DNA of 64,000 bases from Escherichia coli (GCF_046105845.1 NZ_CP151004.1); one strand, 5' to 3'. Numbered from the stretch's first letter, positions 31,116 to 64,000 are shown. Translations and numbers: made by a program. Notes: a model not told the origin generated them from the sequence alone.

Positions 31116-31131
31116 TGTTAATGGAGGCGTC

Positions 31132-33363: not shown

Positions 33364-33378
33364 TTCCTGTTTTATTCA

Positions 33379-33403: not shown

Positions 33404-33463
33404 TGCTCATTGATTCTTTTCTGTGCATCACCGTCATCATTCTCATCTGAGAACCTGTCGAAA

Positions 33464-33907: not shown

Positions 33908-33911
33908 AACG

Positions 33912-34816: not shown

Positions 34817-34818
34817 CG

Positions 34819-37271: not shown

Positions 37272-37281
37272 TTCCGTTTCT

Positions 37282-39671: not shown

Positions 39672-39682
39672 CTTTCAGCTCC

Positions 39683-39958: not shown

Positions 39959-39961
39959 AGG

Positions 39962-41082: not shown

Positions 41083-41084
41083 TG

Positions 41085-41507: not shown

Positions 41508-41530
41508 GCTGTGCTCCTTAGCAAATGGGG

Positions 41531-41806
41531 TTATGCCGATTTAGGTAAAATAGCCTCAACATCACTGTGTGGGCGCGGGATGACATGGCAGGATTTCACT
41601 TCGCCAACTGCGCTTGCCGCAGCGCTCCCCGCATCCACGGCGGCCTTTACTGCACCAACATCACCGCGGACCATCACCGTAATCAGACCCGAACCAATCT
41701 TTTCATAGCCAACCAGTTGCACGTTGGCGGATTTAACCATGGCATCTGCAGCTTCAATTGCGCCAACTAACCCTTTTGTTTCAACCAGTCCTAGTGCGTT
41801 GTTCAT
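41531..41806 (-). CDS. pduJ: BMC shell protein PduJ
   Basis: 91 aa canonical BMC hexamer protein, close paralogue of PduA. Confidence 0.93.
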
Positions 41807-41825
41807 ACTGCTTTTCTCCTGTGGA

Positions 41826-42176
41826 TTATGAGTGGAGTTCCCGGAAGGGAATCCCTTTTACCAGGCGGGCAGCGTTAGAGCCAATGCTGCGCCGGGCATG
41901 GTTATCTTGTTGATACATCAGCGTAAACAGTGGCGCTGATGCCGGTAAGTTTTTGTAATGCACAATCAGTTTTTCCTGATCGCAGGCAATGCCAACCAAC
42001 AGGGGAGATTGACGAGCAGCCAGCCAGGCGCTATCGATAACTTCACCTGACGGAATGTGTTGAATGCGAAAGGGAATACCTTCCTCTTCAATGCCAAGAA
42101 GCACCTCATCCCATATAGTGATGCAGTTACCGATCTCCATGACGACGATGGCTGGTGCTCGCTCTTTACTTTCCAT
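41826..42176 (-). CDS. pduH: diol dehydratase reactivase small subunit
   Basis: 116 aa; follows pduG with an 11-nt overlap. Confidence 0.9.
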
Positions 42177-49316: not shown

Positions 49317-49518
49317 CGAAATAATCTGGCAGTTATAAACGTTTATTTTTTTACTGTTTGTGATCTGCTTTCCGAACTTATTAAAAAGTCTCCCGCTTCA
49401 CGGAGGCTTTTGTTATTGTCCTTTGTGCTTCTCGTCAGTAAATCATCAGGGATGATGTGAAGATTAAATGTAAAACAATTGTTTTGCTATAACAATAAAT
49501 TAACTGGGAGGTTTTATC

Positions 49519-50433
49519 ATGATTTCTGCGGCGACACTTAATTCAGAACTCATTAATAAAATCGCGCAGGATTTTGCGCAGGCGACCAGCCTTGCGGTTG
49601 TCGTGGTCAATATTCACGGCGATGAAATTTCCGAGCTGTTTAACTTCACTCCATTTTGTCAGATGATGCGGCAACACCCTCAGCTAAGCACTCGATGTCG
49701 CATGAGCGATCGTTGTGGGGGCTTGGAAGCCTCTAAATCCGATCAGCCTTGTATTTATCGCTGTCATGCCGGATTAACCGATTTCTCTATTCCACTGGTA
49801 ATCGCCGGGCATTTAGTCGGTTTTGTATTGTGCGGGCAAGTTCGTCTGCGTAATGATGATGTCGATTTGGTCGATATTCTGAATGTCGATGATTGCTGGC
49901 AGGCAGATCCCGAATTACTTAATGAATTCCGCAAAGTTCCTGAGATGGATTACTCAAGAGTTATGGCCTCTGCTGATTTGTTGAAGTTGATTGTGGAAAA
50001 TTGCCTCAAAAAACAACTCAATTTTGTGGTTATTAAAGAGAACAAATCTCAGTCAGATTCGGTGCGCCAGACTCGTGCGCCTAATCCCCACGACAATAAA
50101 ATGAAAAAAGCTTTACGCTATATTGATGCGCATTTATCAGACGATTTGCGTCTGGAAGATGTCGCCTCACACGTTTATCTAAGCCCTTATTATTTCAGTA
50201 AGTTATTTAAGAAATACCATGGAATCGGGTTTAATGCGTGGGTAAACCAACAACGGATGGCCAGCGCTCGTGAGTTACTGTGCCATAGTGACTGGAGCAT
50301 CGCCAGCATTGCGCGTAATTTAGGTTTTTCACAAACAAGTTATTTTTGCAAAGTTTTCCGTCAGACTTATCAGGTTACGCCGCAGGTGTATCGACAGCAA
50401 GTGAGTGATAATGCGGCGATGGAAACGGTATAG
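49519..50433 (+). CDS. pocR: AraC-family activator of pdu/cob regulon
   Basis: 304 aa; C-terminal AraC HTH; matches Salmonella PocR as I recall it. Confidence 0.94.
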   Translation: MISAATLNSELINKIAQDFAQATSLAVVVVNIHGDEISELFNFTPFCQMMRQHPQLSTRCRMSDRCGGLEASKSDQPCIYRCHAGLTDFSIPLVIAGHLVGFVLCGQVRLRNDDVDLVDILNVDDCWQADPELLNEFRKVPEMDYSRVMASADLLKLIVENCLKKQLNFVVIKENKSQSDSVRQTRAPNPHDNKMKKALRYIDAHLSDDLRLEDVASHVYLSPYYFSKLFKKYHGIGFNAWVNQQRMASARELLCHSDWSIASIARNLGFSQTSYFCKVFRQTYQVTPQVYRQQVSDNAAMETV

Positions 50434-50544
50434 AGTAAATGCCCCAAAAAAAGAGGACGGTTTAAATAAACTCTGCAATGAATAATTAACGTTATTTACC
50501 TGTTATGGGAAAAGTGAAATCAGCTCATAACATACGCTGACAGG

Positions 50545-50760
50545 TGTGGCACATTTGTGCCTGGGAAGAGGGTGAAAATCCCTCGCAGCCCCCGCTGCTG
50601 TAATGCTGACAAACCCGAAAATGCCACTGATCGCGAGATTGGGAAGGTCGGGAGAGGATGACGCTAAGCCAGAAGACCAGCCAGTCAGTCAATACCAACA
50701 ACTTCGGTGGGAAGTGGGTTGCCCGGAAGCGTCCGGTAGAGTACCGGCGCGTCTTTATAC
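50545..50760 (+). promoter_or_regulatory. cobalamin (B12) riboswitch-like leader
   Basis: Contains GGTGAAAATCCC, GCAGCCCCCGCTGCTGTAATG, B12-box GCCACTG, GGGAAGG and AAGCCAGAAGACC elements in the order typical of cobalamin riboswitches. Confidence 0.6.
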
Positions 50761-50917
50761 CCCTACCACCCTGAAAGGATCAGGGTATGGCGGCATCATT
50801 TAGTTCTTTCATCGCAGTGCCGACAGGCACCAGGGCTGCACTTAAGGTGTGGCAATCTTGTTTCATGGCTCATCAACCAGACCGCCATTACAGGAAACTA
50901 AGTGGAGGGCGAGAGGC

Positions 50918-51355
50918 ATGAAAACGATAAAACCCGAATCGATAGCTCTTTTTTGCCTCTTATCTGGAGATGTGGATCTGGCGAAATATCTGGCTGAAAT
51001 ATTGCCAATAACCTGTTTTGTTGGTGAGGACTGGCAGCAAGATTTCCAGCCTCTTGATGGTGGGTCTGTGCAATCGTTATCAGATGTGTATGGCGATTAT
51101 TCAGTGCTGCTATTGATAGCAGCTGAAAGCGAGATATCCGTACCAGAATGGCTCGCTCATTCTGAAGGAACGACGGTAATTGTGATTGCAGAACACAATG
51201 CCCGTTTGCTGACTGGTCCGGCTGGTGGGGCTGTAGCATTGATCCATTATCTGAATGAAATCTGTCATTCCAGAGAAACCGCTGTCAATGACGCATTTTG
51301 TCGTACGTTAACACGAGGAAGTCTGGCTATTCCGCAATGCCATCTTCTTTCGTAA
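50918..51355 (+). CDS. hypothetical protein downstream of the B12 leader (possible cbi remnant or novel ORF)
   Basis: ORF 50849..51355; internal ATG at 50918 preceded by GGAGGG; no family recognised by eye. Confidence 0.3.
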   Translation: MKTIKPESIALFCLLSGDVDLAKYLAEILPITCFVGEDWQQDFQPLDGGSVQSLSDVYGDYSVLLLIAAESEISVPEWLAHSEGTTVIVIAEHNARLLTGPAGGAVALIHYLNEICHSRETAVNDAFCRTLTRGSLAIPQCHLLS

Positions 51356-51488: not shown

Positions 51489-52034
51489 ATGATGATTTTG
51501 GTGACAGGTGGAGCACGGAGCGGGAAGAGTCGCCATGCAGAGGCGCTTATTGGGGACTCTTCACAGGTTCTGTATATCGCCACCTCGCAAATCCTTGATG
51601 ATGAGATGGCTGCACGGATAGAACATCATCGGAAAGGCCGCCCGGCGCACTGGCGCACGGTGGAGCGTTGGCAACATCTTGATGAATTAATTCATGCAGA
51701 CATTAACCCGCATGAAGCTGTGTTGCTGGAATGCGTTACCACAATGGTGACTAATCTGTTGTTTGATTATGGCGGAGATAAAGACCCTGATGAATGGGAT
51801 TATCAGGCGATGGAACAGGCAATTAATGCTGAGATTCAGTCGTTGATTGCTGCCTGCCAACGTTGCCCCGCGAAGATTGTATTAGTGACTAACGAAGTGG
51901 GAATGGGGATTGTGCCGGAGAGTCGTCTGGCACGACATTTTCGTGATATTGCCGGGCGGGTAAATCAGCAACTGGCCGCTGCGGCAAATGAAGTGTGGCT
52001 GGTGGTTTCGGGTATTGGAGTAAAAATCAAATGA
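51489..52034 (+). CDS. cobU: adenosylcobinamide kinase / adenosylcobinamide-phosphate guanylyltransferase
   Basis: 181 aa; P-loop GGARSGKS. Confidence 0.96.
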
Positions 52035-52774
52035 GTAAATTATTTTGGGCGATGCTCTCTTTTATTACGCGTCTGCCTGTGCCGCGTCGCTGGTCCCAGG
52101 GACTGGATTTCGAGCATTATTCTCGCGGTATTATTACTTTTCCTTTAATTGGTTTATTGCTTGGCGCGATTAGCGGGCTGGTCTTCATGGCGTTGCAGGC
52201 ATGGTTTGGCGTACCACTGGCGGCACTGTTTAGCGTGCTGGTGCTGGCGCTGATGACCGGGGGATTCCACCTGGACGGCCTCGCCGATACCTGTGATGGC
52301 GTATTTTCTGCACGTAGCCGCGATCGCATGTTGGAAATCATGCGTGATAGTCGTTTAGGCACCCACGGCGGTCTGGCATTGATTTTTGTTGTACTGGCAA
52401 AGATTCTGGTGTTAAGCGAATTGGCTCTGCGTGGCGAACCGATCCTTGCATCGCTGGCGGCAGCATGCGCGGTTAGCCGCGGGACTGCCGCATTATTGAT
52501 GTATCGTCATCGTTATGCCCGGGAAGAAGGGCTTGGCAATGTGTTCATTGGCAAAATTGATGGGCGACAAACCTGCGTCACACTCGGCTTAGCCGCTATT
52601 TTTGCTGCCGTATTATTGCCGGGTATGCATGGTGTGGCTGCTATGGTGGTGACGATGGTGGCGATTTTCATCCTCGGTCAGCTTCTCAAACGTACGCTGG
52701 GCGGGCAAACCGGCGATACGCTGGGAGCAGCCATAGAGCTTGGTGAACTGGTCTTCCTGCTGGCACTGCTATAA
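52031..52774 (+). CDS. cobS: cobalamin 5'-phosphate synthase
   Basis: 247 aa membrane protein from MSKLFWAML; ATGA overlap with cobU stop. Confidence 0.95.
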
Positions 52775-52785
52775 AGAGACGTGAC

Positions 52786-53865
52786 ATGCAAACACTTGCC
52801 AATTTACTGAATACGATCCCTGCCATCGATCCTGCCACTATGTCGCGTGCACAACGGCATATTGACGGGTTACTCAAACCTGTTGGTAGCCTGGGAAGGC
52901 TGGAGGCGCTTGGCGTACAACTGGCGGGAATGCCGGGGTTGAATGGCATACCGCATGTGGGCAAAAAAGCGGTACTGGTTATGTGTGCCGATCACGGCGT
53001 CTGGGAGGAAGGGGTCGCTATTTCCCCAAAAGAAGTCACAGCCATTCAGGCTGAAAATATGACCCGCGGAACAACCGGCGTGTGTGTGCTGGCAGCACAA
53101 GCGGGCGCTAACGTCCACGTAATTGATGTTGGTATTGATACTGCTGAGCCTATCCCCGGGCTTATCAACATGCGTGTCGCACGAGGTAGCGGCAATATTG
53201 CTTCAGCTCCGGCAATGAGTCGCCGTCAGGCTGAAACGTTGCTTTTGGACGTCATATGCTATACGCGGGAGCTGGCAAAAAACGGTGTCACGCTGTTTGG
53301 TGTAGGTGAACTGGGGATGGCAAACACGACACCGGCAGCGGCGATAGTGAGCACAATCACTGGCCTGGATCCTGAAGAAGTGGTTGGGATTGGCGCAAAC
53401 CTGCCGACAGATAAACTGGCTAATAAAATTGATGTTGTGCGACGGGCGATTACGTTGAATCAACCAAATCCGCAGGATGGCGTTGATGTCCTGGCAAAAG
53501 TGGGTGGATTTGATTTGGTCGGAATGGCTGGCGTGATGTTAGGCGCTGCGTCCTGCGGTTTACCGGTGTTGCTGGATGGATTTCTTTCTTATGCTGCCGC
53601 GCTCGCAGCCTGCCAGATGTCTCCTGCAATCAAACCGTATCTCATTCCTTCTCACCTGTCGGCAGAAAAAGGGGCGCGTATAGCGCTGTCGCATTTGGGG
53701 CTGGAGCCTTATCTCAATATGGATATGCGTTTAGGTGAGGGAAGTGGCGCAGCTCTGGCGATGCCCATCATCGAAGCTGCCTGTGCGATATACAACAGCA
53801 TGGGCGAACTTGCTGCCAGTAATATTGTTCTACCGGGGAATACGACTTCTGATTTGAACAGTTAA
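52786..53865 (+). CDS. cobT: nicotinate-nucleotide:dimethylbenzimidazole phosphoribosyltransferase
   Basis: 359 aa; matches CobT. Confidence 0.96.
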
Positions 53866-53926
53866 AAACGAAAAGTCTGATAAAAGCTATACTTAACTGA
53901 TAGCTTTCGCGACTTAGGAAAGGGAC

Positions 53927-54853
53927 ATGATGCGTCGTGTAAATATTTTTTGGTCATTTGCTCTACTTTTTGCCAGCCATAATAGCCTGGCGGTAACTTA
54001 TCCATTACCTCCAGAGGGTAGCCGTTTAGTGGGACAGTCGCTTACTGTAACTGTTCCTGATCACAATACCCAGCCGCTGGAGACTTTTGCCGCACAATAC
54101 GGGCAAGGGTTAAGTAACATGCTGGAAGCGAATCCGGGCGCTGATGTTTTCTTGCCGAAGTCAGGCTCGCAACTCACCATTCCGCAGCAACTGATTTTGC
54201 CCGCCACTGTTCGTAAAGGGATTGTGATTAACGTCGCTGAGATGCGTCTTTATTACTACCCACCAGACAGTAATACTGTGGAGGTTTTTCCTATTGGTAT
54301 CGGCCAGGCTGGGCGAGAAACCCCGCGTAACTGGGTGACTACCGTTGAACGTAAACAAGAAGCACCAACCTGGACGCCAACGCCGAACACCCGGCGCGAA
54401 TATGCGAAACGAGGGGAGAGTTTGCCCGCATTTGTTCCTGCGGGGCCCGATAATCCCATGGGGCTGTACGCGATTTATATTGGCAGGCTATATGCCATCC
54501 ACGGTACCAATGCCAATTTTGGTATTGGGCTCCGGGTAAGTCAGGGCTGTATTCGTCTGCGCAATGACGATATCAAATATCTGTTTGATAATGTTCCTGT
54601 AGGTACTCGTGTTCAAATTATTGATCAGCCAGTGAAATACACAATGGAACCGGATGGTTCAAAGTGGCTGGAAGTTCATGAGCCGCTGTCGCGCAATCGT
54701 GCAGAATATGATTCTGACCGAAAAGTGCCATTGCCGGTAACCCCATCTTTGCGGGCGTTTATCAACGGGCAAGAAGTTGATGTAAATCGCGCAAATGTTG
54801 CGTTGCAACGTCGATCGGGAATGCCTGTGAATATCAACCGTAACGGATTTTGA
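53927..54853 (+). CDS. ldtA: L,D-transpeptidase (YkuD domain)
   Basis: 308 aa; signal peptide; catalytic SQGCIRL motif; position after cobT matches erfK/ldtA. Confidence 0.92.
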
Positions 54854-55014
54854 CATTCAAAACGTCTGGTTTGTCGGTCTGTGTAAGCATTCCGTCATGC
54901 AGAACAGGTTGTTTCGAATCATACAAATGATAATTTTCTTCTCATATGCGCATCTCTTATGAGCATAAACGTTATACTCTTCTGATTTATACATGTTTGC
55001 GGATGACATGATCA

Positions 55015-55992
55015 ATGGAAAAGAGAATGACGAAACAGAATAAAAACAGCCGTTGGCAGGGTTACGATCCTCGTTACATATACTCGCTCGTGGTCAGACG
55101 CTATTTTGCGGATATGAAAACCAAGATTGAGATTGCTGAGGAGCTTGGCGTTTCCCGCTTTAAAGTTGCCAGATTGATCGATGAGGCGATCGAACAGGAT
55201 TACGTGAGGTTTATCTTCCCTAAGCAGCAAGCGATGGATGAAGAAATCGCCAATAATCTACGGAAAAAATTTCATCTGGAAGATGCAATTGTTCTTTCAG
55301 TTGCTGAATCATGGACGACGCAAGAAGAACTCAATCACAAATTGGGTGAAGTCACCGCTGAATATCTTACGCAATCTCTTCATGAAGGTATGAAAGTGGG
55401 GATCGCCTGGGGACGTGTATTATCAAGTACGGTCAGTAAGTTGAGCAAGCTGCCTCCTTTAGACGTTGTGCAGTTATCTGGCGTACATCCGGGGATTGAG
55501 TTTAGTCAAGGGCCAATAGATCTTATTCATAAGATCGCTGCCATTTCGCAGGGAAAAGCGCACCCAATGTACGTGCCGATGTGGGTCGATGACGAAGAGC
55601 TTGCTGCCAGACTGGCAGGTGATCCTGCGGTATTAGATACACAGCAATATTACTCACAGTTGGATGTGGTTATCACCGGGATAGGTGACTGGAAATCAGG
55701 TTCTTCAAGCTTGTGTAAAATATTTCCGGATACCTGGTGCGAAGCTTTGTTTCAACAAGATATCGCTGCGGATGTGTGTATCTCGTTGGTCAGCAGGGAA
55801 GGGAAGATTCTTCATAGTCCTATTGAACGTCTGGGATTTGGCATTTCGACGGATCAACTACAAAAAGCCAAAAAAGTGATTGGTGTCGCCGGAGGGGAAG
55901 AGAAATATGAAGGCATTCTTGCTTCGCTGAAATCTGGACTTTTGAATGTCTTAATTACTGATTTTGATACGGCCATTAAACTTCTGGATTAA
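55015..55992 (+). CDS. SorC-family transcriptional regulator (sugar-binding domain)
   Basis: 325 aa; N-terminal HTH (IAEELGVSRFKVARLI) and C-terminal sugar-binding domain. Confidence 0.8.
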   Translation: MEKRMTKQNKNSRWQGYDPRYIYSLVVRRYFADMKTKIEIAEELGVSRFKVARLIDEAIEQDYVRFIFPKQQAMDEEIANNLRKKFHLEDAIVLSVAESWTTQEELNHKLGEVTAEYLTQSLHEGMKVGIAWGRVLSSTVSKLSKLPPLDVVQLSGVHPGIEFSQGPIDLIHKIAAISQGKAHPMYVPMWVDDEELAARLAGDPAVLDTQQYYSQLDVVITGIGDWKSGSSSLCKIFPDTWCEALFQQDIAADVCISLVSREGKILHSPIERLGFGISTDQLQKAKKVIGVAGGEEKYEGILASLKSGLLNVLITDFDTAIKLLD

Positions 55993-56043
55993 TAGCCGTA
56001 TCTGTGAAGAAAGGGCAGTACCGCTGATTCTGCCCTTTTAATT

Positions 56044-56502
56044 TCAGGATGCTGCGAGCGTATCCTCTACATATTTAGCCACGCGCGTTGCAGGTAAATT
56101 GCGGCAAGTCTCAACAAAGGCGTTATCCTGAAACAGTGTGAATAAACGACGCAATATCGACATATGTTGATCACTGGTGGCAAATGCCAGGTTAAACATA
56201 ATGCTACAATCAACTGTTAAAGCAGCATCTTCCATCTGTCCGAAAGTGACATCATTGGAGAAACGAACAATACTGATGCTGTTTACATTTACCAGCGTGT
56301 AATCGGCATGGGGAATGGCGATACCCTGACCGTTTGCCATCATTAATCCTGTCGGATAGCTTTTTTCACGTTCCAGACAGGCGTCAATGTATTCTGCAGT
56401 GATGTAGCCTTTTTCCAATAATTGCGTACCAGCAAAGGTGATCGCCGTTTGATAGTCGTTGATGCTGTTATCAACATCATTTACCAGAATTTCAAATTTC
56501 AT
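56044..56502 (-). CDS. PTS EIIA component (type 2)
   Basis: 152 aa; conserved phosphorylatable His in GIAIPHAD. Confidence 0.85.
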   Translation of the reverse strand: MKFEILVNDVDNSINDYQTAITFAGTQLLEKGYITAEYIDACLEREKSYPTGLMMANGQGIAIPHADYTLVNVNSISIVRFSNDVTFGQMEDAALTVDCSIMFNLAFATSDQHMSILRRLFTLFQDNAFVETCRNLPATRVAKYVEDTLAAS

Positions 56503-56512
56503 TGCACACCTG

Positions 56513-56797
56513 TTATTTCAGTATCTCTTCTTTAACTGCAGCGAAAATCTCATCTTCGCCCAGACCAGTCAGTAATCCAGCGCCAACGATGACACGAGTA
56601 GTAATGGCCGGGTTATCGAGTTTGGTCGATGAAACCACCAGGTCATAGCTGTTGAAGGTATCGCTGGTGCATGCCATTAACGAAGATTTATCGACTTGCG
56701 CTTCAATTTTCTCTTCTTTCAGTAAGTCCTGCAGTACAGAGACCATGATGGAAGATGAGGCAATTCCGTTTCCGCAAACTACTAAGATTTTTTTCAT
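56513..56797 (-). CDS. PTS EIIB component (galactitol-type)
   Basis: 94 aa; active-site Cys in KILVVCGNGIASS. Confidence 0.85.
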   Translation of the reverse strand: MKKILVVCGNGIASSSIMVSVLQDLLKEEKIEAQVDKSSLMACTSDTFNSYDLVVSSTKLDNPAITTRVIVGAGLLTGLGEDEIFAAVKEEILK

Positions 56798-56820
56798 TTG
56801 ATTATTCCTCTGTAAAAGAT

Positions 56821-58191
56821 TTAAAGCGCTTTTTCTAAATCCGTTTCAATCTGGCGACGTGATTTTTGTTTAATTAAGTATCCAATAGATAACAAAAGGA
56901 TACCTGCCATCACATAGCCAATGATTCCAACATGGCTCAGGGCGGCAAACAGACCAGTAAATGGATTCGCAGACGGGTTAAGCGAAGAGTACATCACGCT
57001 GGCATCCGGGTTTGTACCAAACTTCTGGAAGACTTCGTTGGTAGCCGGTGCCATCCACGATGCAATATACAGACCACCACCGAACAAAATGATCGAGGTC
57101 ACCCAGGTGCGAATAATGTTGCCATTGAAAACAGGCACCATGCAGGCAATGAAAAACACAAACTGAGAGAGGTCACCCAGTGGCATAACGCGGTTGCCGG
57201 GCAAGATCACTGCGAGGATCACAATCACCGGGATCAGTAATAATGCCGGGGCGATAACTGACGGATGACCCACAATCAGGGCAGTGTCCATTCCAACAGT
57301 GATTTGACGATCCGGGAAACGTTTGACCAGTTTTTTGCGTGCCACGTTGGAAAGCGGAACAAGCCCTTCCATCATGATAGAGGTCATACGTGGCAACAGA
57401 AGCATGACTGCAGCCAGATACATCCCTAACTGTAGGCTGGCAATTATGGTGTGGTAGGGGGATTTCCAGCCATAACCACAAAAGCCCAACAAAATACCAA
57501 TAATAAAACCAACCATAGTTGGATCGCCCAGAATGCCAAACCGTTTTTGAATAGTTTCGGCGGTCACATTCAGATTACGGAAGCCTGGGATGCGATCATA
57601 AATCCAGTTGAATGGATAAGCGAAAAGTAAGTAGGTATTGGCAACCGGGTGAGAGATCGCAACACCTTTTGGCAGGTTAAAGAATTTTTCGTTATTTTTA
57701 GCACCGAGATCGGCAGCGATCAGCGCCCAGACATGGAATAGCGCGGCGGTCAATGCGCCATACAGGAAGCTACCAGAATAGACGCCAACAATTGCCCCCA
57801 TTGACGCATTTTGATGAAGGTTGAAAACATCAACGTTAACACAGTCAGTCAGGCGGGCGACCAGCATTGCAATATTTACCGCAACACAGAGGGGAATAAT
57901 GATAGCGCCCATGCTGGAGCCAAATCCCATCACTGCAGTCGCTGCGCCACCAACATCGATGGCACTGAGCGAGGAACCTGTTGCTTCTGCTAATCCGGTG
58001 ACTGCCGGTTGCATTTTTTCCAGCATCAGTTTGATGGTCATGGTTAGCGCAATGAAACCAATGCCGACTTTGATGGCGGAGGAGATACATTCTGAAAGAG
58101 GACGGCCAAGTATCTTCATCAGTACCAGAAAGATGACCGGGATAAATATAAAATTTCCCAGATCGTTTATAAATTGCGTGATCAGTTCCAT
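56821..58191 (-). CDS. PTS EIIC permease (galactitol family)
   Basis: 456 aa polytopic membrane protein. Confidence 0.85.
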   Translation of the reverse strand: MELITQFINDLGNFIFIPVIFLVLMKILGRPLSECISSAIKVGIGFIALTMTIKLMLEKMQPAVTGLAEATGSSLSAIDVGGAATAVMGFGSSMGAIIIPLCVAVNIAMLVARLTDCVNVDVFNLHQNASMGAIVGVYSGSFLYGALTAALFHVWALIAADLGAKNNEKFFNLPKGVAISHPVANTYLLFAYPFNWIYDRIPGFRNLNVTAETIQKRFGILGDPTMVGFIIGILLGFCGYGWKSPYHTIIASLQLGMYLAAVMLLLPRMTSIMMEGLVPLSNVARKKLVKRFPDRQITVGMDTALIVGHPSVIAPALLLIPVIVILAVILPGNRVMPLGDLSQFVFFIACMVPVFNGNIIRTWVTSIILFGGGLYIASWMAPATNEVFQKFGTNPDASVMYSSLNPSANPFTGLFAALSHVGIIGYVMAGILLLSIGYLIKQKSRRQIETDLEKAL

Positions 58192-58194
58192 ACA

Positions 58195-58731
58195 TTAACC
58201 CTCAGATTTTTCATCATCTGGTCGGAAACCCATATTCCAGCGTACATCAGCGGGCTTAACCAGCAATGCATTATCGTTACGTTCAGCTTCTAGTAAGTTC
58301 TTTTTAGAATTTTCTCTGGCGGTGGTGAAGTCGAATGGGTTATCCAACCATGCATCGACAATCATTTTGCTGTATTCGAGATCGTTGACCCGGCAACCCA
58401 GTCCAATAACTTGTGCGTTATTGCTGAGTCGCGCCCGCTTTGCGGAGTAGGGGTTAGTAACCGCAACGGCTCTTATGCCCCAGTGTTTGTTGATCTGACA
58501 AGTAAAGCCAATGCCAGTCCCACAAATGTAAATTCCCAGACGGCACTCATCGCGTTGAATAATGCCTGCCATTTCGTCGGCTAGACGCGCGAAGTTATTG
58601 ACACCTTGTTCCTTACATGTGACGGGATCGTACACGATCTCCATGTTTTTCTCTTCTATGAGGTATTTTTTTATCTCCTCTTTACGTGCAAAACCTACAT
58701 CATCGCTTGCGATAGCAATCTTCGTTTTCAT
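58195..58731 (-). CDS. RpiB/LacAB-family sugar-phosphate isomerase
   Basis: 178 aa; CGTGIGFTCQINKHWGIRAV and KMIVDAWL closely parallel RpiB motifs. Confidence 0.85.
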   Translation of the reverse strand: MKTKIAIASDDVGFARKEEIKKYLIEEKNMEIVYDPVTCKEQGVNNFARLADEMAGIIQRDECRLGIYICGTGIGFTCQINKHWGIRAVAVTNPYSAKRARLSNNAQVIGLGCRVNDLEYSKMIVDAWLDNPFDFTTARENSKKNLLEAERNDNALLVKPADVRWNMGFRPDDEKSEG

Positions 58732-59079
58732 TTCATTTTGCCTGTCGTTAAGTAACTAAAGCCAAGTATGCTGTTGGTAAATATTGGTTGTCAATTGAGA
58801 TCTAAATCACAAAATTTATAACTGATTGATTTTTATGATAAAAAAAACCAATAAAAACAAATAAAAAATAAATTAAGCCAATTGAGACAAATTGGGATTG
58901 TACAGTGGCGTTGTAATGAATAATAAAAACTCATTTATTATCAATCGGATATATGGTTTTTGAACTATTGTCTTTATTGGGTTTATTTGTACTTTCCACT
59001 GTTAGTGTTTGTTTTTGTTTGCATCATCTGTGCTATGCTTGGCGTTTTCTAAGATGGGTAATAGATTTCAGGAGGAAGG

Positions 59080-59835
59080 ATGTATCTGGTTGATGAAAGG
59101 CGAAAGTTAATACTTGAAGACTTAATGTCGGCAGGTACGGTCTATGTCAGTGATCTTGCACGAAAGTATGAAGTAACGTATGAGACCATCAGGAAAGATT
59201 TGACCCATCTTGAACAAAAAGGGCTGCTGATCAAAAGCCATGGTGGGGCGACTTTAAAGCAAAGGGCCATAGAGCATCCCTTTCAGGTCAGGGAAAAAGA
59301 AAATAACTCTTATAAGAAGGCGATAGCTCGTAAAGCGCTTGATTTCATTCCGCCTAATAGTTCGATGATTATCGGTACGGGCAGTACCACTTTTGAGCTG
59401 GCTAACCTGTTATGTATGAAGTCTGGGTTTAAAATCTTCACAGATTCGCTCCCCGTTGCCAGTGTGTTGATTGAATCTGACAATCAGGTTTTTCTCTTTG
59501 GCGGCGAACTGCGTAGAAAGAGTTCCTCAGTGTTTGGGGGGTGGGCGGTATCTATGATCAACGATATACATGTTGATCTCTGTTTCATTGGAACCGACGG
59601 TTTTAGTAACATGACTGGTCCATCGACGCCTTCTTCTTCTGATGCGTTTTTGGATCGCACGATAATTTCGCACTCAGACAAAAAATATATCCTCGGTGAT
59701 TACACCAAGTTTGAGCGCAGCAGTTTGTTTAAGATCTGCGACTGGTCGGAGATCACCGCCCTTATTACCAACGATCATGCCGACAAAGAGGGGATTGCCG
59801 AAGTCGCAAAATACACGTCAGTAATAACCTGTTAG
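59080..59835 (+). CDS. DeoR-family transcriptional repressor
   Basis: 251 aa; N-terminal HTH and DeoR C-terminal sensor domain; divergent from the isomerase-PTS operon. Confidence 0.85.
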   Translation: MYLVDERRKLILEDLMSAGTVYVSDLARKYEVTYETIRKDLTHLEQKGLLIKSHGGATLKQRAIEHPFQVREKENNSYKKAIARKALDFIPPNSSMIIGTGSTTFELANLLCMKSGFKIFTDSLPVASVLIESDNQVFLFGGELRRKSSSVFGGWAVSMINDIHVDLCFIGTDGFSNMTGPSTPSSSDAFLDRTIISHSDKKYILGDYTKFERSSLFKICDWSEITALITNDHADKEGIAEVAKYTSVITC

Positions 59836-60172
59836 AACTCACTACGACACGCCTTCTCTCTTCGAATCAGCTTTGCCAAATGTAATCATTTCATAATTAT
59901 CAAGTGAGCATCCATGGCGATGCTTGCTTAGCGCCCTCTATTGAATACATCCTCTACATATTGCCAGTTTCACTTCATTTTTAGCGACGAAATCATTTTT
60001 TGAATCACGATTTGCTCATATGAGCGTAAATAGTGTCGCCATTATGTGATTTTTTGTGATCTGGATTTAATTTCTCAGATCTCGTCATTTGTCCACAGGA
60101 TCGTTGTGCTATAACTGCTCATATGAAGGTTGTTCAATGCTCATGTGAGCATTGGGGGTGAGGGGGAAGGAT

Positions 60173-60616
60173 ATGATATCGATCAGTGTTGCCGATGGTG
60201 CGGGACTACAGAACTACGATGCCGTGCTTGAACATATTTATAACACGCATCGTGAAACGAATACGGTGAAAGAGAGCTGGCTCAATGCTATGCGTAAACG
60301 CGAAGCGGAATATCCGACAGGAATAGAACTGGAAGGTTATTCTATCGCTATACCACACTGTGATAGTGAACATGCGAATCAACCGGCTATTTACATCATC
60401 CGTCTGCCAGACGCAATACCTGTGAACAGGGCTGATGAAGATGGAATATTGTGGGTCAGACTGGTCGTTAATATCATTGTTACGGATCCTGCTGACCAGC
60501 TTCGATTGTTAAAGTCATTATTTAACCATCTCCAAAATGAAGAATTCTACCAAAACTTACTGACACTTCCCGTCGAGGATGCAAAAGCACTTTTTGTATC
60601 CAGGATAATCCAATAG
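60173..60616 (+). CDS. PTS EIIA component (type 2)
   Basis: 147 aa from the ATG preceded by AGGGGGAAGG; His in IAIPHCD; ORF-track TTG start lies 7 codons upstream. Confidence 0.8.
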   Translation: MISISVADGAGLQNYDAVLEHIYNTHRETNTVKESWLNAMRKREAEYPTGIELEGYSIAIPHCDSEHANQPAIYIIRLPDAIPVNRADEDGILWVRLVVNIIVTDPADQLRLLKSLFNHLQNEEFYQNLLTLPVEDAKALFVSRIIQ

Positions 60617-60634
60617 TAAAAACTGGAGTTTATT

Positions 60635-60928
60635 ATGATTAATATTCTTGTTGCTTGTGGTAGCGGTGTCGCTACATCTACGCTTGCTGCTGATGAAGTG
60701 AAGTCAGTATGTGCTGAATATGGTATTACGGCATTTAAAATCAACAAATGCAGTATGGCTGAACTTTCTTCTGAGATGGCTCATGCAGATATTGTACTCA
60801 CAACTAATAATTATAAAGGTGATATTGGGAAACCACATATGAGCGTTGCAGGTTTTGTAACGGGTATTAATGAAGGAGCATTACGCAAGAAATTAGGAGA
60901 GTTATTAACTGAATTAGCAAATAGCTAA
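60635..60928 (+). CDS. PTS EIIB component (galactitol-type)
   Basis: 97 aa; active-site Cys in ILVACGSGVATS. Confidence 0.85.
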   Translation: MINILVACGSGVATSTLAADEVKSVCAEYGITAFKINKCSMAELSSEMAHADIVLTTNNYKGDIGKPHMSVAGFVTGINEGALRKKLGELLTELANS

Positions 60929-60948
60929 ACCTGACAGGAATAATAAAA

Positions 60949-62202
60949 ATGGAAATGTTGAAAAATTTAATGGAAACAATCACCGGAATGGGGGCGACTG
61001 CAATACTGCCGCTGGTGATATTTATTTTAGGTCTGGTGTTCAGAATGAAACCAGGTGCCGCGATCAAGTCGGGCATCACCGTCGGTATTGGTTTTATTGG
61101 TTTAGGTTTAGTTGTTGGTTTATTAAATAGTTCATTACAGCCAGCTATCGAGTATTACTCAAAAGTAGGCAGTGGTTTTACGGTTGCAGATATTGGTTGG
61201 CCAGCAGTCGGTGCGGCTGCATGGGTAGCACCTTTTGCCGCATTAGTGATACCAGTTGGCATCGTACTTAACCTGATTCTGGTGCGCCTGAAATTAACCA
61301 AAACGTTAAATGTTGATATCTGGAACTATATGCATTTTTTAGTTCCGGGCGCTCTGGCATATTTTGTGTTCGACAGTTTTATCATCGGCTTCTCTGTCGC
61401 GGTGGCTTTGAGTATTGCGGCCCTGTTTATTGGCGATTTGATTGCGCCCAGATGGCAAAAATATTATGGACTCGAGGGAACAACCTGTACCACGATGATT
61501 CATATCGGCTGGACTCTACCGTTCGCCTGGGTAGTAAATAAAATCATTGATTACATCCCTGGGTTAAATAAGTTAGATGTTGACTTAAACAGTGTGCAAA
61601 AACGCCTGGGTGTCTTTGGTGAACCTGCAATTATCGGTGTTATCGTTGGCGCATTACTCGGAGTTTTAACGAAACAGGCAATTACCACAATTGTTCCCAT
61701 GGCGATGGGGGTTGCTGGTGTAATGGTATTGTTACCTAAAGTGGTCGGTGTGCTGATGGAAGGTCTTAACCCGATTGGGAAAAGTGCCAAAGAAATCATG
61801 CAAAAACAGATGGGTAAAGATGCTGAATTAAACATCGGTATGGATTGTGCACTGGCGTTGGGGGATCCGGCGACGGTCACCGTGACAGTCATTACCATTC
61901 CTTTAACTATGCTATGTGCTCTGGTATTGCCTGATATTAAGATCTTCCCAATTGGCGTATTGATGTCAATTATTTATATGACCACCATGACCGTAATGGC
62001 GAGCAACGGTAACGTGATTCGTTCGATTATCTCGACCTTGTTATTCTGCGTTGTAGTGATGTATTTAGGCGGTTATGTCGCACCAGGGGCAACGCAATTT
62101 TTAGCTGGAGCCGGTGTAGGCTTGCAAGGACAAGGTACTGATTTTGTATTAACCGGCCCGTGGGAAATTTTAACCTATTGGTTGAGCACCGTATTACATT
62201 GA
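60949..62202 (+). CDS. PTS EIIC permease (galactitol family)
   Basis: 417 aa polytopic membrane protein. Confidence 0.85.
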   Translation: MEMLKNLMETITGMGATAILPLVIFILGLVFRMKPGAAIKSGITVGIGFIGLGLVVGLLNSSLQPAIEYYSKVGSGFTVADIGWPAVGAAAWVAPFAALVIPVGIVLNLILVRLKLTKTLNVDIWNYMHFLVPGALAYFVFDSFIIGFSVAVALSIAALFIGDLIAPRWQKYYGLEGTTCTTMIHIGWTLPFAWVVNKIIDYIPGLNKLDVDLNSVQKRLGVFGEPAIIGVIVGALLGVLTKQAITTIVPMAMGVAGVMVLLPKVVGVLMEGLNPIGKSAKEIMQKQMGKDAELNIGMDCALALGDPATVTVTVITIPLTMLCALVLPDIKIFPIGVLMSIIYMTTMTVMASNGNVIRSIISTLLFCVVVMYLGGYVAPGATQFLAGAGVGLQGQGTDFVLTGPWEILTYWLSTVLH

Positions 62203-62224
62203 TTTAATAATCTGGAGTTTTAAC

Positions 62225-62869
62225 ATGGCAAAAATATTACCTTCTATATTTGGCGCGGATATTTTACGCCTGAAAGATGAAATTCATTTTCTGGAAGAGG
62301 AACAAACCGAAATATTGCACGTTGATTTAATGGATGGCACTTACGTCAGTAATATTGCCTTTGGCCCAAATCAAATTGCAGCAATGAAAAAAGCCAGTTC
62401 GATGATCTTTGACGTGCATATGATGCTGGCAAATCCTGAGCGACATATTGATGATGTAATCAATACCGGGGCGGAGATGATTTCTGTACATTATGAGTCG
62501 ACGCCACATGTGCATTATATTATTCAAAAAATCAAAAAAGCGGGGCGCAAAGCAGGTGTTGTGCTTAATCCTGGGACACCTGAATCTGTCATCGAGTATT
62601 TATTAGATGATATTGATTATATATTGTTAATGACAATTAATCCGGGGCAACTAGGCCAGACATTTATTCATAAAAGCCTGGAGAAAATCCGTAACACCAA
62701 AAAATTGATATCTGGCAGAGATATTCAAATTGAAGTGGATGGTGGCGTTAATCTTGATAATGTGAAACAAGTTAAAGAAGCGGGGGCTGACCTTATTGTT
62801 GTTGGCGGTGCATTATTTAACAAACAGCCTCATGAAAGTTATCAGGCATTAAAAATCGCTGTTCAGTGA
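62225..62869 (+). CDS. ribulose-phosphate 3-epimerase family protein
   Basis: 214 aa TIM-barrel epimerase signature (HVDLMDG, MTINPGQ). Confidence 0.85.
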   Translation: MAKILPSIFGADILRLKDEIHFLEEEQTEILHVDLMDGTYVSNIAFGPNQIAAMKKASSMIFDVHMMLANPERHIDDVINTGAEMISVHYESTPHVHYIIQKIKKAGRKAGVVLNPGTPESVIEYLLDDIDYILLMTINPGQLGQTFIHKSLEKIRNTKKLISGRDIQIEVDGGVNLDNVKQVKEAGADLIVVGGALFNKQPHESYQALKIAVQ

Positions 62870-62964
62870 TCATAATCTAAAAATTTTACATCCAGCTAAG
62901 TGAGGTTTTCGATTTCATATCGGGAGGAAAACCCCAACTAAAAAGTCTTTAATGGAGAAAAGTA

Positions 62965-63717
62965 ATGAGTAATTTTGCAGGTAAAGTGGTTTTAGTTACC
63001 GGAGGTGCTCACGGTATTGGCAAAGGGATAGCTAAACAATTTGCTGATCGTGGTGCACATACTGTTATTGTTGACTATAACGAAGAGAACGGCAAGGCCA
63101 CTGCAGCAGAGTTAACTTTTGGCGATGTTAAATCGCTGTTTGTTAAAACAGATGTCTCCGATCCACAGGCATTAGTGGATGTACGGGAAAAAGTATTTGC
63201 TACCTTTGGTCGTATTGATGTGTTGATATTAAATGCCGGTGTGGCATTTGCCAATAAAGTTAACAATATTTCTTTTGAGGAATGGAATAAGACTATCGCA
63301 ATTAACTTATCGGGATTATTTAATACCGTTAAGGCATTTTATGATGATTTCCTGACAAATAAGGGATCTATTGTTTATATCTCATCGGGATCAGCGCTTT
63401 CGGGGACTGGGGGCGGCGTGAGCTATCCTGCCAGTAAAGCGGGAGGCGAAGGATTGATTCGTGGTCTGGCAAAAGAGTTAGGACCAAAAGGCGTAAATGT
63501 TAATGCGATTGCTCCCCGCTTAATAGACACCGGAGATATGATGCGGGTCAACTATCCAACACAAGCCGATTTAGACGCTGTCCTGGAAAAAATACCCGTC
63601 CGTCGTCTGGGGACTATCGATGATGTGGCTAACCTGGCAATATTTTTGGCAGATAAAGATAACTCTTATATTCAGGGACAAACCATTTTAATGGATGGTG
63701 GCCGGACTATTGCTTAA
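62965..63717 (+). CDS. short-chain dehydrogenase/reductase (SDR)
   Basis: 250 aa; TGGAHGIGK NAD-binding motif and YxxxK catalytic motif (YPASK). Confidence 0.88.
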   Translation: MSNFAGKVVLVTGGAHGIGKGIAKQFADRGAHTVIVDYNEENGKATAAELTFGDVKSLFVKTDVSDPQALVDVREKVFATFGRIDVLILNAGVAFANKVNNISFEEWNKTIAINLSGLFNTVKAFYDDFLTNKGSIVYISSGSALSGTGGGVSYPASKAGGEGLIRGLAKELGPKGVNVNAIAPRLIDTGDMMRVNYPTQADLDAVLEKIPVRRLGTIDDVANLAIFLADKDNSYIQGQTILMDGGRTIA

Positions 63718-63731
63718 AAAGGGAGAGGAAA

Positions 63732-64000
63732 AATGAGTGTTCAGGAAAATACTCTTAATATTCTGCATGAATTAGAGAGTAATGCACTGAAGATTGACGA
63801 TGCTCAGGCTGCACAGTTTATTTCGCAAATCAGAAATGCCCGGCATATTTTTTTGCAGGGAGCTGGGCGCAGTGGCATTGCTATTCGCGCTTTTGCTAAT
63901 CGCTTGCTGCATTTAGGTTTTTCAGTAAGCGTTGTGGGAGAAATATCATCACCGCATACCCAACCTGGAGATCTATTAATTATTGGGTCAGGCAGTGGTG
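63732..64000 (+). CDS. SIS-domain sugar-phosphate isomerase, 5' portion (runs off window end)
   Basis: ATG at 63732; GAGRSGIA phosphosugar-binding motif typical of SIS domains. Confidence 0.7.

What the first reader, a model, noticed from the sequence alone, without database searches (positions are those of the whole stretch)
54854..64000. Carbohydrate island with two galactitol-family PTS systems next to erfK/ldtA
After ldtA the window does not continue into the tRNA-Asn, nac and cbl genes that follow in K-12 as I recall. Instead it carries a SorC regulator, a minus-strand operon (RpiB/LacAB isomerase, EIIC, EIIB, EIIA), a divergent DeoR repressor, and a plus-strand operon (EIIA, EIIB, EIIC, ribulose-phosphate 3-epimerase-like, SDR dehydrogenase, SIS isomerase...). 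The enzyme set suggests uptake and conversion of a polyol or ketose to a pentose-phosphate intermediate; the substrate is not deducible from sequence. No integrase or tRNA is visible in the window, and tRNA-Asn genes are known island insertion sites in E. coli.
Basis: partly seen in the sequence, partly recalled or inferred. Interest (0 to 1): 0.6.

Follow-up and report, generated by a model that had tools for sequence, protein, structure and literature searches.

The report
Accessory two-PTS sugar-alcohol islet beside ldtA
This is a real but fairly ordinary 9.5-kb accessory gene block, present in about 4% of complete E. coli genomes, that encodes two uptake systems and a few enzymes for an unidentified sugar alcohol or rare sugar; it lies next to, but was not inserted into, the tRNA-Asn gene.

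Summary

The block is accessory. At least 80% of it is present in 225 of 5,426 complete E. coli genomes, always next to ldtA. K-12 goes straight from ldtA to asnV, nac and cbl.

It is not a tRNA-integrated island:
- The left junction is inside ldtA, at 54829/54830, and replaces the last 33 nt of the K-12 gene.
- In relatives the right junction lies 5 nt after hxlB. The K-12-type ldtA terminator and an intact asnV follow.
- 142 genomes have no integrase there at all.
- Integrase islands, where present, sit between the block and asnV inside their own 17-bp repeat.

The block is a composite of two modules:
- A SorC-type regulator plus IIA-IIB-IIC-Rpe-SDR-PHI. A conserved TGCTCAYRTGAGCA operator triplet lies upstream of IIA.
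- A DeoR regulator plus RpiB-IIC-IIB-IIA, inserted between the SorC gene and its operon.

The same composite occurs in five other Enterobacterales, the second operon alone in seven more, and both modules in Enterococcus.

The genes are under purifying selection. The function is most likely polyol uptake and conversion to fructose-6-P or pentose phosphates. The substrate is unknown, and I found no paper on this block. Interest is modest.

The parts
53927..54853 (+). ldtA (L,D-transpeptidase), 308 codons. Codons 1-301 are shared with K-12. The last 7 codons and the stop come from the block.
   Evidence: K-12 ends ...GMPVQISSGSRQMF* (311 aa) and the window ends ...[11 protein letters not shown]. 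The megablast match to K-12-type genomes stops at 54829.
54830..55014 (+). Left end of the block: the new ldtA tail (54830-54853) and the regulator's upstream region. The upstream region holds two degenerate copies of the operator palindrome, at 54939-54952 and 54952-54965.
   Evidence: This stretch has no homologue in the other Enterobacterales loci, where similarity starts at 55014.
55015..55992 (+). SorC/DeoR(Bsu)/LsrR-family sugar-binding transcriptional regulator (RefSeq start equivalent 55027). Inferred repressor of the plus-strand operon.
   Evidence: NF053881 at 131 bits and LsrR at 77 bits, both below cut-off. In seven taxa this gene sits directly upstream of the IIA2 operon with no module 1, and in Rouxiella it lies inside the operon.
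56044..56502 (-). EIIA-1 (PTS_EIIA_2 type; AIPH phosphorylation motif present).
   Evidence: Best match is the GatA model NF007236, E 2e-22.
56513..56797 (-). EIIB-1 (N-terminal VVCGNG cysteine motif).
56821..58191 (-). EIIC-1, galactitol-family permease (456 aa).
   Evidence: TIGR00827 at 350.7 bits, below the 542 cut-off. 95-96% identical to Citrobacter, Klebsiella oxytoca and Enterobacter orthologues and 81-82% to Enterococcus.
58195..58731 (-). RpiB/LacA/LacB-family sugar-phosphate isomerase, first gene of the minus-strand operon.
   Evidence: TIGR00689 at 99.7 bits against a cut-off of 88.3. The specific RpiB, LacA/B and erythrulose-4-P isomerase models all score below their cut-offs.
58757..58873 (-). 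Conserved promoter region of the minus-strand operon. It has a sigma-70-like TTGACA-18-CATACT (58794 to 58765), a CRP-like TGTGATTTAGATCTCA (58811 to 58796) and an A-rich repeat AAAAACAAATAAAA.
   Evidence: (10 of 12 match) and alignment A2 of six species. Function is inferred, not shown.
59007..59039 (+). Conserved region upstream of the DeoR gene: GTTTGTTTTTGTTTGCA, then an extended -10-like TGTGCTATGCT.
   Evidence: Alignment A2. Inferred DeoR promoter and operator.
59080..59835 (+). DeoR/GlpR-family regulator, divergent from the RpiB operon. Inferred repressor of that operon.
   Evidence: AgaR model at 170.7 bits, below cut-off. The same divergent pairing with RpiB-IIC-IIB-IIA occurs in Enterococcus L018 and L026.
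60013..60151 (+). Promoter and operator region of the plus-strand operon. Three copies of the palindrome TGCTCAYRTGAGCA lie at 60013-60026, 60116-60129 and 60138-60151, around an extended -10 TGTGCTATAAC (60105-60115).
   Evidence: Alignment A1 of eight species. The exact motif occurs 15 times in 12 of 42 loci, all of them Enterobacterales with the SorC gene and always upstream of IIA2; there are none in the Firmicutes loci or K-12.
60173..60616 (+). EIIA-2 (the mechanical ORF starts at TTG 60152; the likely start is ATG 60173). AIPH motif present.
   Evidence: The GatA model NF007236 scores 134.3 bits against a cut-off of 139.
60635..60928 (+). EIIB-2 (VACGSG cysteine motif).
   Evidence: The GatB model scores 50.7 bits, below the cut-off of 95.
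60949..62202 (+). EIIC-2, galactitol-family permease (417 aa).
   Evidence: TIGR00827 at 322.5 bits. Orthologues are 90-94% identical in 12 other Enterobacterales and 69-77% in Streptococcus, Enterococcus and Breznakia.
62225..62869 (+). Ribulose-phosphate 3-epimerase family enzyme.
   Evidence: TIGR01163 at 232.8 bits against a cut-off of 212.6; the AlsE model at 177.7 against 271. The closest solved structure is Streptococcus pyogenes Rpe 2fli, E 1e-55.
62965..63717 (+). Classical SDR dehydrogenase (TGGAHGIG and YPASK motifs). Inferred polyol-phosphate dehydrogenase.
   Evidence: Only generic FabG/glucose-DH-type matches. In nine related loci it is replaced by a GatD-like Zn-MDR.
63733..64000 (+). 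5' part (89 codons) of hxlB-type 6-phospho-3-hexuloisomerase (SIS domain), cut by the window end. The full gene in relatives is 561 nt.
   Evidence: translation; RefSeq annotation in relatives; 152.9 bits to Bacillus subtilis YckF/HxlB, 1m3s.

Best explanation
The span is an accessory catabolic islet of about 9.56 kb lying between ldtA and the ldtA terminator/asnV. It carries no mobility genes of its own.

It is a composite of two regulator-plus-operon modules. Each encodes a complete galactitol-family (TC 4.A.5) EIIA/EIIB/EIIC set.

Module 2 is a SorC-type repressor plus IIA-IIB-IIC-Rpe-SDR-PHI. The repressor is inferred to bind three TGCTCAYRTGAGCA palindromes around an extended -10 promoter. 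Module 1 is a DeoR-type repressor and the divergent RpiB-IIC-IIB-IIA operon. It sits inserted between the SorC gene and its target operon.

Inferred mechanism: a sugar alcohol is taken up and phosphorylated by PTS-2. The SDR oxidises it to a keto-sugar phosphate. The epimerase and the hexuloisomerase then bring that product to fructose-6-P, or to Ru5P/Xu5P. PTS-1 takes up a stereochemically related aldose or ketose, and the RpiB-like enzyme isomerises its phosphate into the same pool.

What is shown: gene content, intactness, distribution, junctions, conservation and the operator footprint. What is inferred: regulator-operator assignment, the order of reactions, and the class of substrate. The substrate itself is unknown.
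For: Gene identities.

Accessory status and fixed position:
- The block is at least 80% present in 225 of 5,426 genomes, all on the chromosome. 226 genomes have it contiguous with ldtA.

Junctions:
- Left junction at 54829/54830, inside ldtA.
- Right junction 5 nt after the hxlB stop, followed by the K-12-type spacer and asnV.
- 142 genomes have hxlB directly followed by an intact asnV.

Modular origin:
- The full composite occurs in Citrobacter, K. oxytoca, Enterobacter wuhouensis, Entomohabitans and Providencia vermicola.
- SorC plus operon 2 alone occurs in seven other taxa.
- DeoR plus operon 1 lies next to operon 2 in two Enterococcus, in a different orientation, so the juxtaposition arose independently.

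Operator: conserved in eight species. The exact motif is found only in SorC-bearing loci and always upstream of IIA2.

Polyol inference: the SDR is exchanged for GatD-like MDR dehydrogenases in nine loci, and PHI for a true HPS in three. Characterised Gat-family PTS operons take galactitol or D-arabitol (PMC6685057).

Functional maintenance: 80 synonymous against 17 non-synonymous differing codons versus EC28, and 106 against 17 versus ATCC 8739. Both EIIC genes have 0 non-synonymous changes in 62 differing codons.
Against: - No experimental datum on this block was found in ten literature searches.
- The SDR has no specific family assignment.
- A role for PHI is hard to fit to a simple pentitol route, and a role for Rpe is hard to fit to a simple hexitol route. 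The order of reactions is therefore conjecture.
- Regulator-operator pairing rests on co-occurrence, not binding data.
- The right-hand end and what follows it in this particular genome lie outside the window.
- Whether the block was gained once and often lost, or spread by recombination, is unresolved. Diversity within the block (up to 2.3%) is close to that of the flanks.
Confidence: 0.7

Rival explanations
1. The block is the distal cargo of a genomic island that an integrase inserted site-specifically into tRNA-Asn (asnV). The integrase and tRNA simply lie beyond the window end.
For: asnV is a documented integration site for HPI-ICE and pks islands (PMC7545054, PMC8209727). In EC28 a P4-type integrase and asnV lie about 15 kb beyond hxlB. 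Composition is atypical.
Against: - There is no tRNA-Asn 3' repeat at the ldtA side in the window or in EC28.
- A spacer of about 55 nt with the K-12-type ldtA terminator separates the block from asnV.
- In ATCC 8739 the 17-bp att repeat lies between the block and the further island.
- 142 of about 225 carriers have no integrase at all.
Confidence: 0.07
2. The block is ancestral to E. coli (core-like), and the K-12 arrangement results from repeated deletion.
For: - Block diversity among E. coli copies (97.7-99.6% identity) is similar to that of the flanking cobUST-ldtA region (96.5-99.2%).
- Deletion derivatives exist: an IS1 cut in Ec1120, a fusion to an integrase-domain gene in strain 1409, and an IS in IIC2 of ECZP248.
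Against: - Only 4-5% of complete genomes carry it.
- No Escherichia, Shigella or Salmonella species representative among 100,044 genomes has it. The closest relatives are scattered Enterobacterales at 70-78% nucleotide identity, and Firmicutes.
- G+C is 42.7%, and GC3 falls as low as 0.22-0.34 in IIB2, Rpe and SDR.
- K-12 has 33 nt of its own at the junction, so a simple deletion does not give the K-12 state.
Confidence: 0.15
3. Functional rival: the islet is a pentitol (ribitol, D-arabitol or xylitol) system of the Listeria / Bacillus methanolicus type. The pentitol phosphate would be oxidised to Ru5P or Xu5P, and Rpe and RpiB would feed the pentose-phosphate pathway. PHI would be peripheral.
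For: - Characterised Gat-family PTS operons with polyol-phosphate dehydrogenases take D-arabitol (PMC6685057 and references therein).
- The epimerase scores as a true Rpe, closer to Rpe than to AlsE.
- An RpiB-family isomerase is present.
Against: - PHI is kept in all 24 non-E. coli SDR-type loci and is replaced by HPS in three MDR-type loci. This points to a 3-hexulose-6-P intermediate.
- No transketolase or phosphoketolase is linked.
Confidence: 0.3
4. The block is a silent, decaying remnant without present function.
For: 52 genomes carry only partial copies. No phenotype is known.
Against: - All twelve genes are full length in the window and in relatives.
- There is a strong excess of synonymous over non-synonymous change, stronger than in the flanking core genes.
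- Promoter and operator elements are conserved across genera.
Confidence: 0.05

Closest known systems
E. coli K-12 gatYZABCD (galactitol PTS and tagatose-6-P pathway)
   Same: Separate EIIA, EIIB and EIIC of the same PTS family (TC 4.A.5). EIIA-2 almost reaches the GatA equivalog cut-off (134.3 against 139 bits). A dehydrogenase acts after the PTS step, and a DeoR-type repressor is present in the system.
   Different: Both EIIC proteins score far below the TIGR00827 trusted cut-off (350 and 322 against 542 bits). The dehydrogenase is an SDR, not the Zn-MDR GatD. There is no GatZ/GatY aldolase or kinase; Rpe, PHI and RpiB are present instead.
E. coli K-12 sgcXBCQAER operon (uncharacterised Gat-family PTS with the Rpe paralogue SgcE, in the KpLE2 island)
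   Same: An accessory Gat-family PTS operon with an Rpe-family epimerase and a DeoR-type regulator. The substrate was still unknown in 2026 (PMC13343008).
   Different: The epimerase here is not SgcE-like (NF005944 at 116 bits against a cut-off of 376). There are no SgcQ or SgcX homologues. SDR, PHI, RpiB and a SorC regulator are added, and the chromosomal site is different.
Firmicute D-arabitol/pentitol PTS operons (Listeria monocytogenes; Enterococcus avium APDH operon; Bacillus methanolicus atlABCD)
   Same: A Gat-family EIIABC followed by a polyol-phosphate dehydrogenase. The Firmicute homologues of operon 2 have the same PRD/BglG-type activator upstream. Pentose-phosphate enzymes are linked in Listeria (my knowledge of Kentache et al. 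2016, which I did not read here).
   Different: The dehydrogenase in E. coli is an SDR, not an MDR. PHI is strictly linked. In Enterobacterales the regulators are SorC and DeoR repressors rather than PRD activators. No substrate has been tested.
Ribulose monophosphate pathway (HPS/PHI; hxlAB of Bacillus subtilis)
   Same: A bona fide PHI-type SIS isomerase (152.9 bits to YckF/HxlB).
   Different: There is no HPS in the block and no link to formaldehyde. PHI is embedded in a PTS sugar operon.
asnV/asnT/asnW-integrated islands of E. coli (HPI, pks, ICEEc1)
   Same: The same chromosomal neighbourhood. In some carriers such an island lies next to the block.
   Different: The block has no integrase and no att repeats, and it is not contiguous with the tRNA.

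Membership tests
PTS galactitol (Gat) family, TC 4.A.5 | EIIC permease homologous to GatC/SgcC | tested here: met
   TIGR00827 EIIC-GAT: E 1e-104 (EIIC-1) and 4e-96 (EIIC-2). Both are below the curated 542-bit cut-off, so this is family membership, not GatC orthology.
PTS galactitol (Gat) family, TC 4.A.5 | Separate soluble EIIA (PTS_EIIA_2 type, phosphorylatable His) and EIIB (N-terminal Cys) partners encoded with the EIIC | tested here: met
   The GatA model is the best hit for both EIIA proteins, and the GatB model for EIIB-2. AIPH motifs are present in both EIIA and CG(N/S)G motifs in both EIIB. Phosphotransfer itself was not tested.
PTS galactitol (Gat) family, TC 4.A.5 | Galactitol as the transported substrate | not testable with these tools
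   No equivalog cut-off is reached by EIIB or EIIC. Characterised family members take galactitol or D-arabitol (PMC6685057).
tRNA-integrated genomic island | Tyrosine integrase gene inside the element | tested here: not met
   There is none in 54830-64000. DETEC-P881 has none between ldtA and asnV, and 142 genomes show the same direct hxlB-asnV junction.
tRNA-integrated genomic island | Direct repeats of the tRNA 3' end at both borders, with one border inside the tRNA gene | tested here: not met
   There is no match to TTGGCTCCTCTGACTGG(ACTCGAACC) in the window at up to 3 mismatches, nor near ldtA in EC28. The block is separated from asnV by the K-12-type terminator spacer.
tRNA-integrated genomic island | Sporadic distribution and atypical base composition | tested here: met
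   4-5% of complete E. coli genomes carry it. G+C is 42.7%.
Ribulose monophosphate (HPS+PHI) formaldehyde pathway | 3-hexulose-6-phosphate synthase together with PHI | tested here: not met
   PHI is present and HPS is absent from the block. True HPS (TIGR03128, 273-276 bits) occurs only in the distant Enterococcus pallens and Propionispira variants, which lack PHI.
sgc operon of K-12 | SgcE-type epimerase plus SgcQ and SgcX | tested here: not met
   The SgcE-type model NF005944 scores 116 bits against a cut-off of 376. There are no further ORFs of SgcQ or SgcX type in the block.
Firmicute pentitol/D-arabitol PTS operons | Zn-dependent MDR arabitol-phosphate dehydrogenase and PRD-type activator | tested here: not met
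   E. coli has an SDR and SorC/DeoR repressors. GatD-like MDR enzymes and PRD-type regulators of about 690 aa occur in the Firmicute relatives of operon 2.
SorC/DeoR(Bsu)/LsrR family of sugar-phosphate-responsive repressors | N-terminal HTH plus C-terminal sugar-binding domain, and a palindromic operator near the regulated promoter | tested here: inconclusive
   Full-length matches to the B. subtilis DeoR and LsrR models are below their cut-offs. A conserved palindrome triplet co-occurs with the gene. Binding and effector were not tested.

The most novel reading that the evidence does not exclude
The invariant trio of dehydrogenase, Rpe-family epimerase and PHI defines an undescribed PTS-dependent route. 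In it a hexitol phosphate, or tagatose/sorbose-type ketohexose phosphate, reaches fructose-6-P through 3-hexulose-6-phosphate intermediates. PHI would shift the carbonyl between C2 and C3. The Rpe-like enzyme would epimerise C4, which lies at the same distance from the phosphate as C3 of Ru5P. This would be a kinase- and aldolase-free alternative to the tagatose-6-P pathway, and a non-methylotrophic use of a RuMP enzyme.
Probability: 0.2. Interest if true: 0.6.

Novelty: new member of a known kind. Interest (0 to 1): 0.3.

Why it matters
It adds a well-delimited, selectively maintained but unstudied catabolic module to the E. coli accessory genome. The module is carried by, among others, the widely used strain ATCC 8739.

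It also shows that a block sitting beside a classic tRNA hot spot need not have arrived through that hot spot.

If the enzyme trio proves to be a new hexitol or rare-sugar route, it would be of use to metabolic engineers working on rare sugars and polyols. It would also help explain niche differences among gut and plant-associated Enterobacterales, enterococci and bee-gut lactobacilli.

As it stands, this is an ordinary accessory sugar operon with an unknown substrate.

Tried and rejected
- **tRNA-Asn repeats.** I searched the window and EC28 for tRNA-Asn 3'-end repeats at the ldtA border and found none. The tRNA-integration model for the block was therefore rejected.
- **Recent transfer from Enterococcus.** The SDR is 92% identical at protein level to that of Enterococcus sp. 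CU9D, but the DNA is only 72% identical. This is a conserved protein, not a recent transfer.
- **Solved structures.** Searches with the SDR, PHI and Rpe gave only generic FabG-type neighbours for the SDR, so there is no substrate clue.
- **Rfam.** The scan of the whole window found no RNA family inside the block.
- **Repeats.** The repeat search in the block found no terminal inverted or direct repeats suggesting a transposon.
- **CRP site upstream of operon 2.** I considered one, but only one half-site fits, so it is not claimed. The CRP-like site upstream of operon 1 is better (9 of 10) but untested.
- **Literature.** Nothing was found on this block. The Klebsiella psicose locus (PMC6020474) and the B2 PHI-PtsG locus (PMC12928451) are different loci.
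- **Bee-gut transcriptome supplements (PMC8456714).** A PHI gene adjacent to a Gat-family EIIA gene, in a strain other than L. helsingborgensis, was up in pollen extract in vitro and down in vivo. I could not tie this to an orthologue, so it remains a lead only.
- **LdtA outgroups.** I ran no further search on LdtA outgroups. The direction of the event at the junction therefore remains inferred.

Full report
**Observation**

- ldtA ends at 54853.
- A SorC/DeoR(Bsu)/LsrR-type regulator lies at 55015-55992.
- A minus-strand operon follows: RpiB/LacAB, EIIC, EIIB and EIIA (58731 down to 56044).
- A divergent DeoR/GlpR regulator lies at 59080-59835.
- A plus-strand operon follows: EIIA, EIIB, EIIC, Rpe and SDR (60173-63717).
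- The first 89 codons of a PHI-type SIS isomerase are cut by the window end.

Both EIIC proteins belong to the galactitol family (TIGR00827, E 1e-104 and 4e-96) but score below the curated cut-off. The epimerase passes the Rpe equivalog cut-off. Phosphorylation motifs (AIPH in both EIIA, CG(N/S)G in both EIIB) and the SDR motifs are intact. No tRNA is found in the window.

**Accessory status and position**

Megablast against 5,426 complete E. coli genomes gives the following.

- ldtA is found in 5,417 genomes.
- At least 80% of the block is found in only 225, and any part of it in 277. All copies are chromosomal.
- 226 genomes have the block contiguous with ldtA, so the site is fixed.
- K-12 runs ldtA, tRNA-Asn (asnV), nac, cbl.

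The best identity of any genome to the window's block is 98.5%. The flanks are 96.4-97.2% identical to the genomes compared, so the source lineage is not closely represented.

**Borders**

Similarity to K-12-type genomes stops at 54829, exactly after codon 301 of ldtA.

- K-12 continues with 33 nt encoding QISSGSRQMF*.
- The window continues with NINRNGF*.

The right border lies outside the window and has to be read in relatives. In DETEC-P881 the hxlB stop is followed by 5 nt. Then come the K-12-type sequence gagttggtaattagaaagc, the terminator hairpin and an intact tRNA-Asn.

The block therefore replaces 33 nt at the end of ldtA. It remains separated from asnV by the ancestral spacer.

- No copy of the tRNA-Asn 3' end occurs at the ldtA side.
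- A junction probe shows hxlB directly followed by spacer, intact asnV and its flank in 142 genomes.
- In ATCC 8739 the spacer is followed by the 17-bp repeat TTGGCTCCTCTGACTGG and then a different island.
- In EC28 an IS3 element cuts the spacer, and about 15 kb with integrases follows before asnV.

asnV is a documented hot spot (PMC7545054, PMC8209727). Those islands are separate insertions on the tRNA side of the block.

Deletion derivatives of the block also exist: an IS1 cut in Ec1120, a fusion in strain 1409, and an IS in EIIC-2 of ECZP248.

**Origin and modular structure**

A scan of one genome per species (100,044 species) with EIIC-2 returned 36 loci. None came from Escherichia, Shigella or Salmonella. 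A tblastn synteny table shows three patterns.

1. The full composite occurs in Citrobacter sp., Klebsiella oxytoca, Enterobacter wuhouensis, Entomohabitans and Providencia vermicola. A degraded copy occurs in Enterobacter sp. EA-1. Protein identity is about 71-96% and DNA identity 70-78%.
2. A short form, with the SorC gene directly upstream of IIA-IIB-IIC-Rpe-SDR-PHI, occurs in Pseudocitrobacter, Brenneria, an uncultured Enterobacteriaceae genome, Erwinia typographi, two Pantoea and Izhakiella.
3. Firmicute versions occur in Enterococcus, Streptococcus cuniculi, Breznakia, bee-gut Lactobacillus and Paenibacillus. Here a regulator of about 690 aa precedes the same six genes.

In two Enterococcus genomes the DeoR plus RpiB-IIC-IIB-IIA module lies just upstream of operon 2, in the opposite relative orientation to E. 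coli. The two modules have thus been brought together at least twice, which suggests related substrates.

G+C of the block is 42.7%, with GC3 down to 0.22.

Within E. coli the block differs by up to 2.3%, close to the flanks. It shows 80:17 and 106:17 synonymous to non-synonymous differing codons, and no amino-acid change in either EIIC. It is old in the species, mosaic, and under purifying selection.

**Regulation**

*Operon 2.* Aligning the region upstream of IIA-2 from eight species gives a clear footprint. Three copies of TGCTCAYRTGAGCA lie at 60013, 60116 and 60138, around an extended -10 TGTGCTATAAC. Two degenerate copies lie upstream of the SorC gene, at 54939 and 54952.

The exact motif occurs 15 times in 12 of the 42 loci held. 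All 12 are Enterobacterales with the SorC gene, and the motif is always upstream of IIA-2. There are none in the Firmicute loci or in K-12. In Rouxiella the SorC gene sits inside the operon.

I infer that the SorC-type protein represses operon 2 and itself, acting across the inserted module 1.

*Operon 1.* The RpiB-DeoR intergenic region carries three conserved elements:

- a sigma-70-like promoter;
- a CRP-like site matching 9 of 10 positions;
- A/T-rich repeats at both promoters.

I take these as the DeoR operator region. None of this has been tested by binding.

**Function**

The PTS parts are clear. The enzymes allow only an inference.

- The SDR has no specific relatives.
- In nine related loci it is replaced by Zn-MDR enzymes whose best model is galactitol-1-P 5-dehydrogenase (210-236 bits, below cut-off). 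This supports a polyol-phosphate dehydrogenase step.
- PHI accompanies all SDR-type loci. In Enterococcus pallens and Propionispira it is replaced by a true HPS.
- PHI and HPS share only 3-hexulose-6-P as a metabolite, which points to a hexulose-phosphate intermediate.
- Rpe is present in every complete locus.

I therefore favour the route polyol, polyol phosphate, keto-sugar phosphate, then epimerisation and isomerisation to fructose-6-P. The rival is a plain pentitol route as in Listeria and Bacillus methanolicus (PMC6685057), in which PHI has no obvious role. The RpiB-like enzyme of module 1 would isomerise a related aldose phosphate.

**Comparison and novelty**

The closest known systems are:

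- gat of K-12, which shares the PTS family but has different enzymes;
- the still uncharacterised sgc operon (PMC13343008);
- the Firmicute D-arabitol PTS operons.

The block fails the defining tests of a tRNA-integrated island, of the RuMP pathway (no HPS) and of sgc. The genes are already annotated in RefSeq genomes, and I found no paper on them.

I class the block as a new member of a known kind, namely accessory Gat-family PTS catabolic operons. The most novel reading still open is a new route through 3-hexulose-6-P using PHI and an Rpe-like 4-epimerase (probability about 0.2).

**Verdict**

This is a well-defined but ordinary accessory sugar islet, and interest is 0.3.

Noticed in passing
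window 54830-54853: Carriers of the block have an ldtA allele with a different C-terminus: NINRNGF* (308 aa) in place of QISSGSRQMF* (311 aa) in K-12. The block replaces the last 33 nt of the K-12 ldtA gene. Whether this affects LdtA is unknown.
   Followed up: partly
window 49519-51355: pocR is followed by a cobalamin riboswitch (50525-50699, 109 bits). After it come only a 168-codon ORF and then cobUST. The cbi biosynthesis genes that the riboswitch normally precedes are missing, although a full pdu operon lies upstream, as in EC28.
   Followed up: partly
window 1-25000 and 51489-54829: The his/gnd/O-antigen part matches its best complete E. coli genome at only 97.6% (two genomes cover it). 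cobUST-ldtA is 96.4-97.2% identical to the genomes compared. The source lineage is not closely represented among 5,426 complete genomes.
   Followed up: no
window 22690-22813 (-), 25111-25185 (+), 49375-49458 (-): Rfam hits above gathering score: His leader, STnc240 and STnc230 sRNAs.
   Followed up: no
L001 (EC28) 28415-43150: Between the block and asnV, EC28 carries an IS3 element, an AAA ATPase with two very large hypothetical proteins (2.5 and 3.9 kb genes), a MazEF pair and two integrase genes. This may be a defence-type island. The spacer before asnV is cut by the IS.
   Followed up: no
L003 (ATCC 8739) 21443-32679: A 17-bp tRNA-Asn 3' repeat directly after the ldtA-terminator spacer marks the border of a different island. 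That island has two large hypothetical genes (4.0 and 2.1 kb) and an Rhs element with an immunity gene.
   Followed up: partly
L018 (Enterococcus sp. CU9D) 5-2417: A third Gat-family PTS set (IIC end, IIB) with its own Rpe-like (225 aa) and PHI-like (183 aa) genes lies upstream of the two modules. The Rpe plus PHI pairing with Gat-family PTS genes therefore recurs.
   Followed up: no
window 56821-58191 versus L001: EIIC-1 is identical at every nucleotide to EC28, while the neighbouring DeoR gene differs at 12 synonymous sites. This indicates recombination mosaicism inside the block among E. coli lineages.
   Followed up: no
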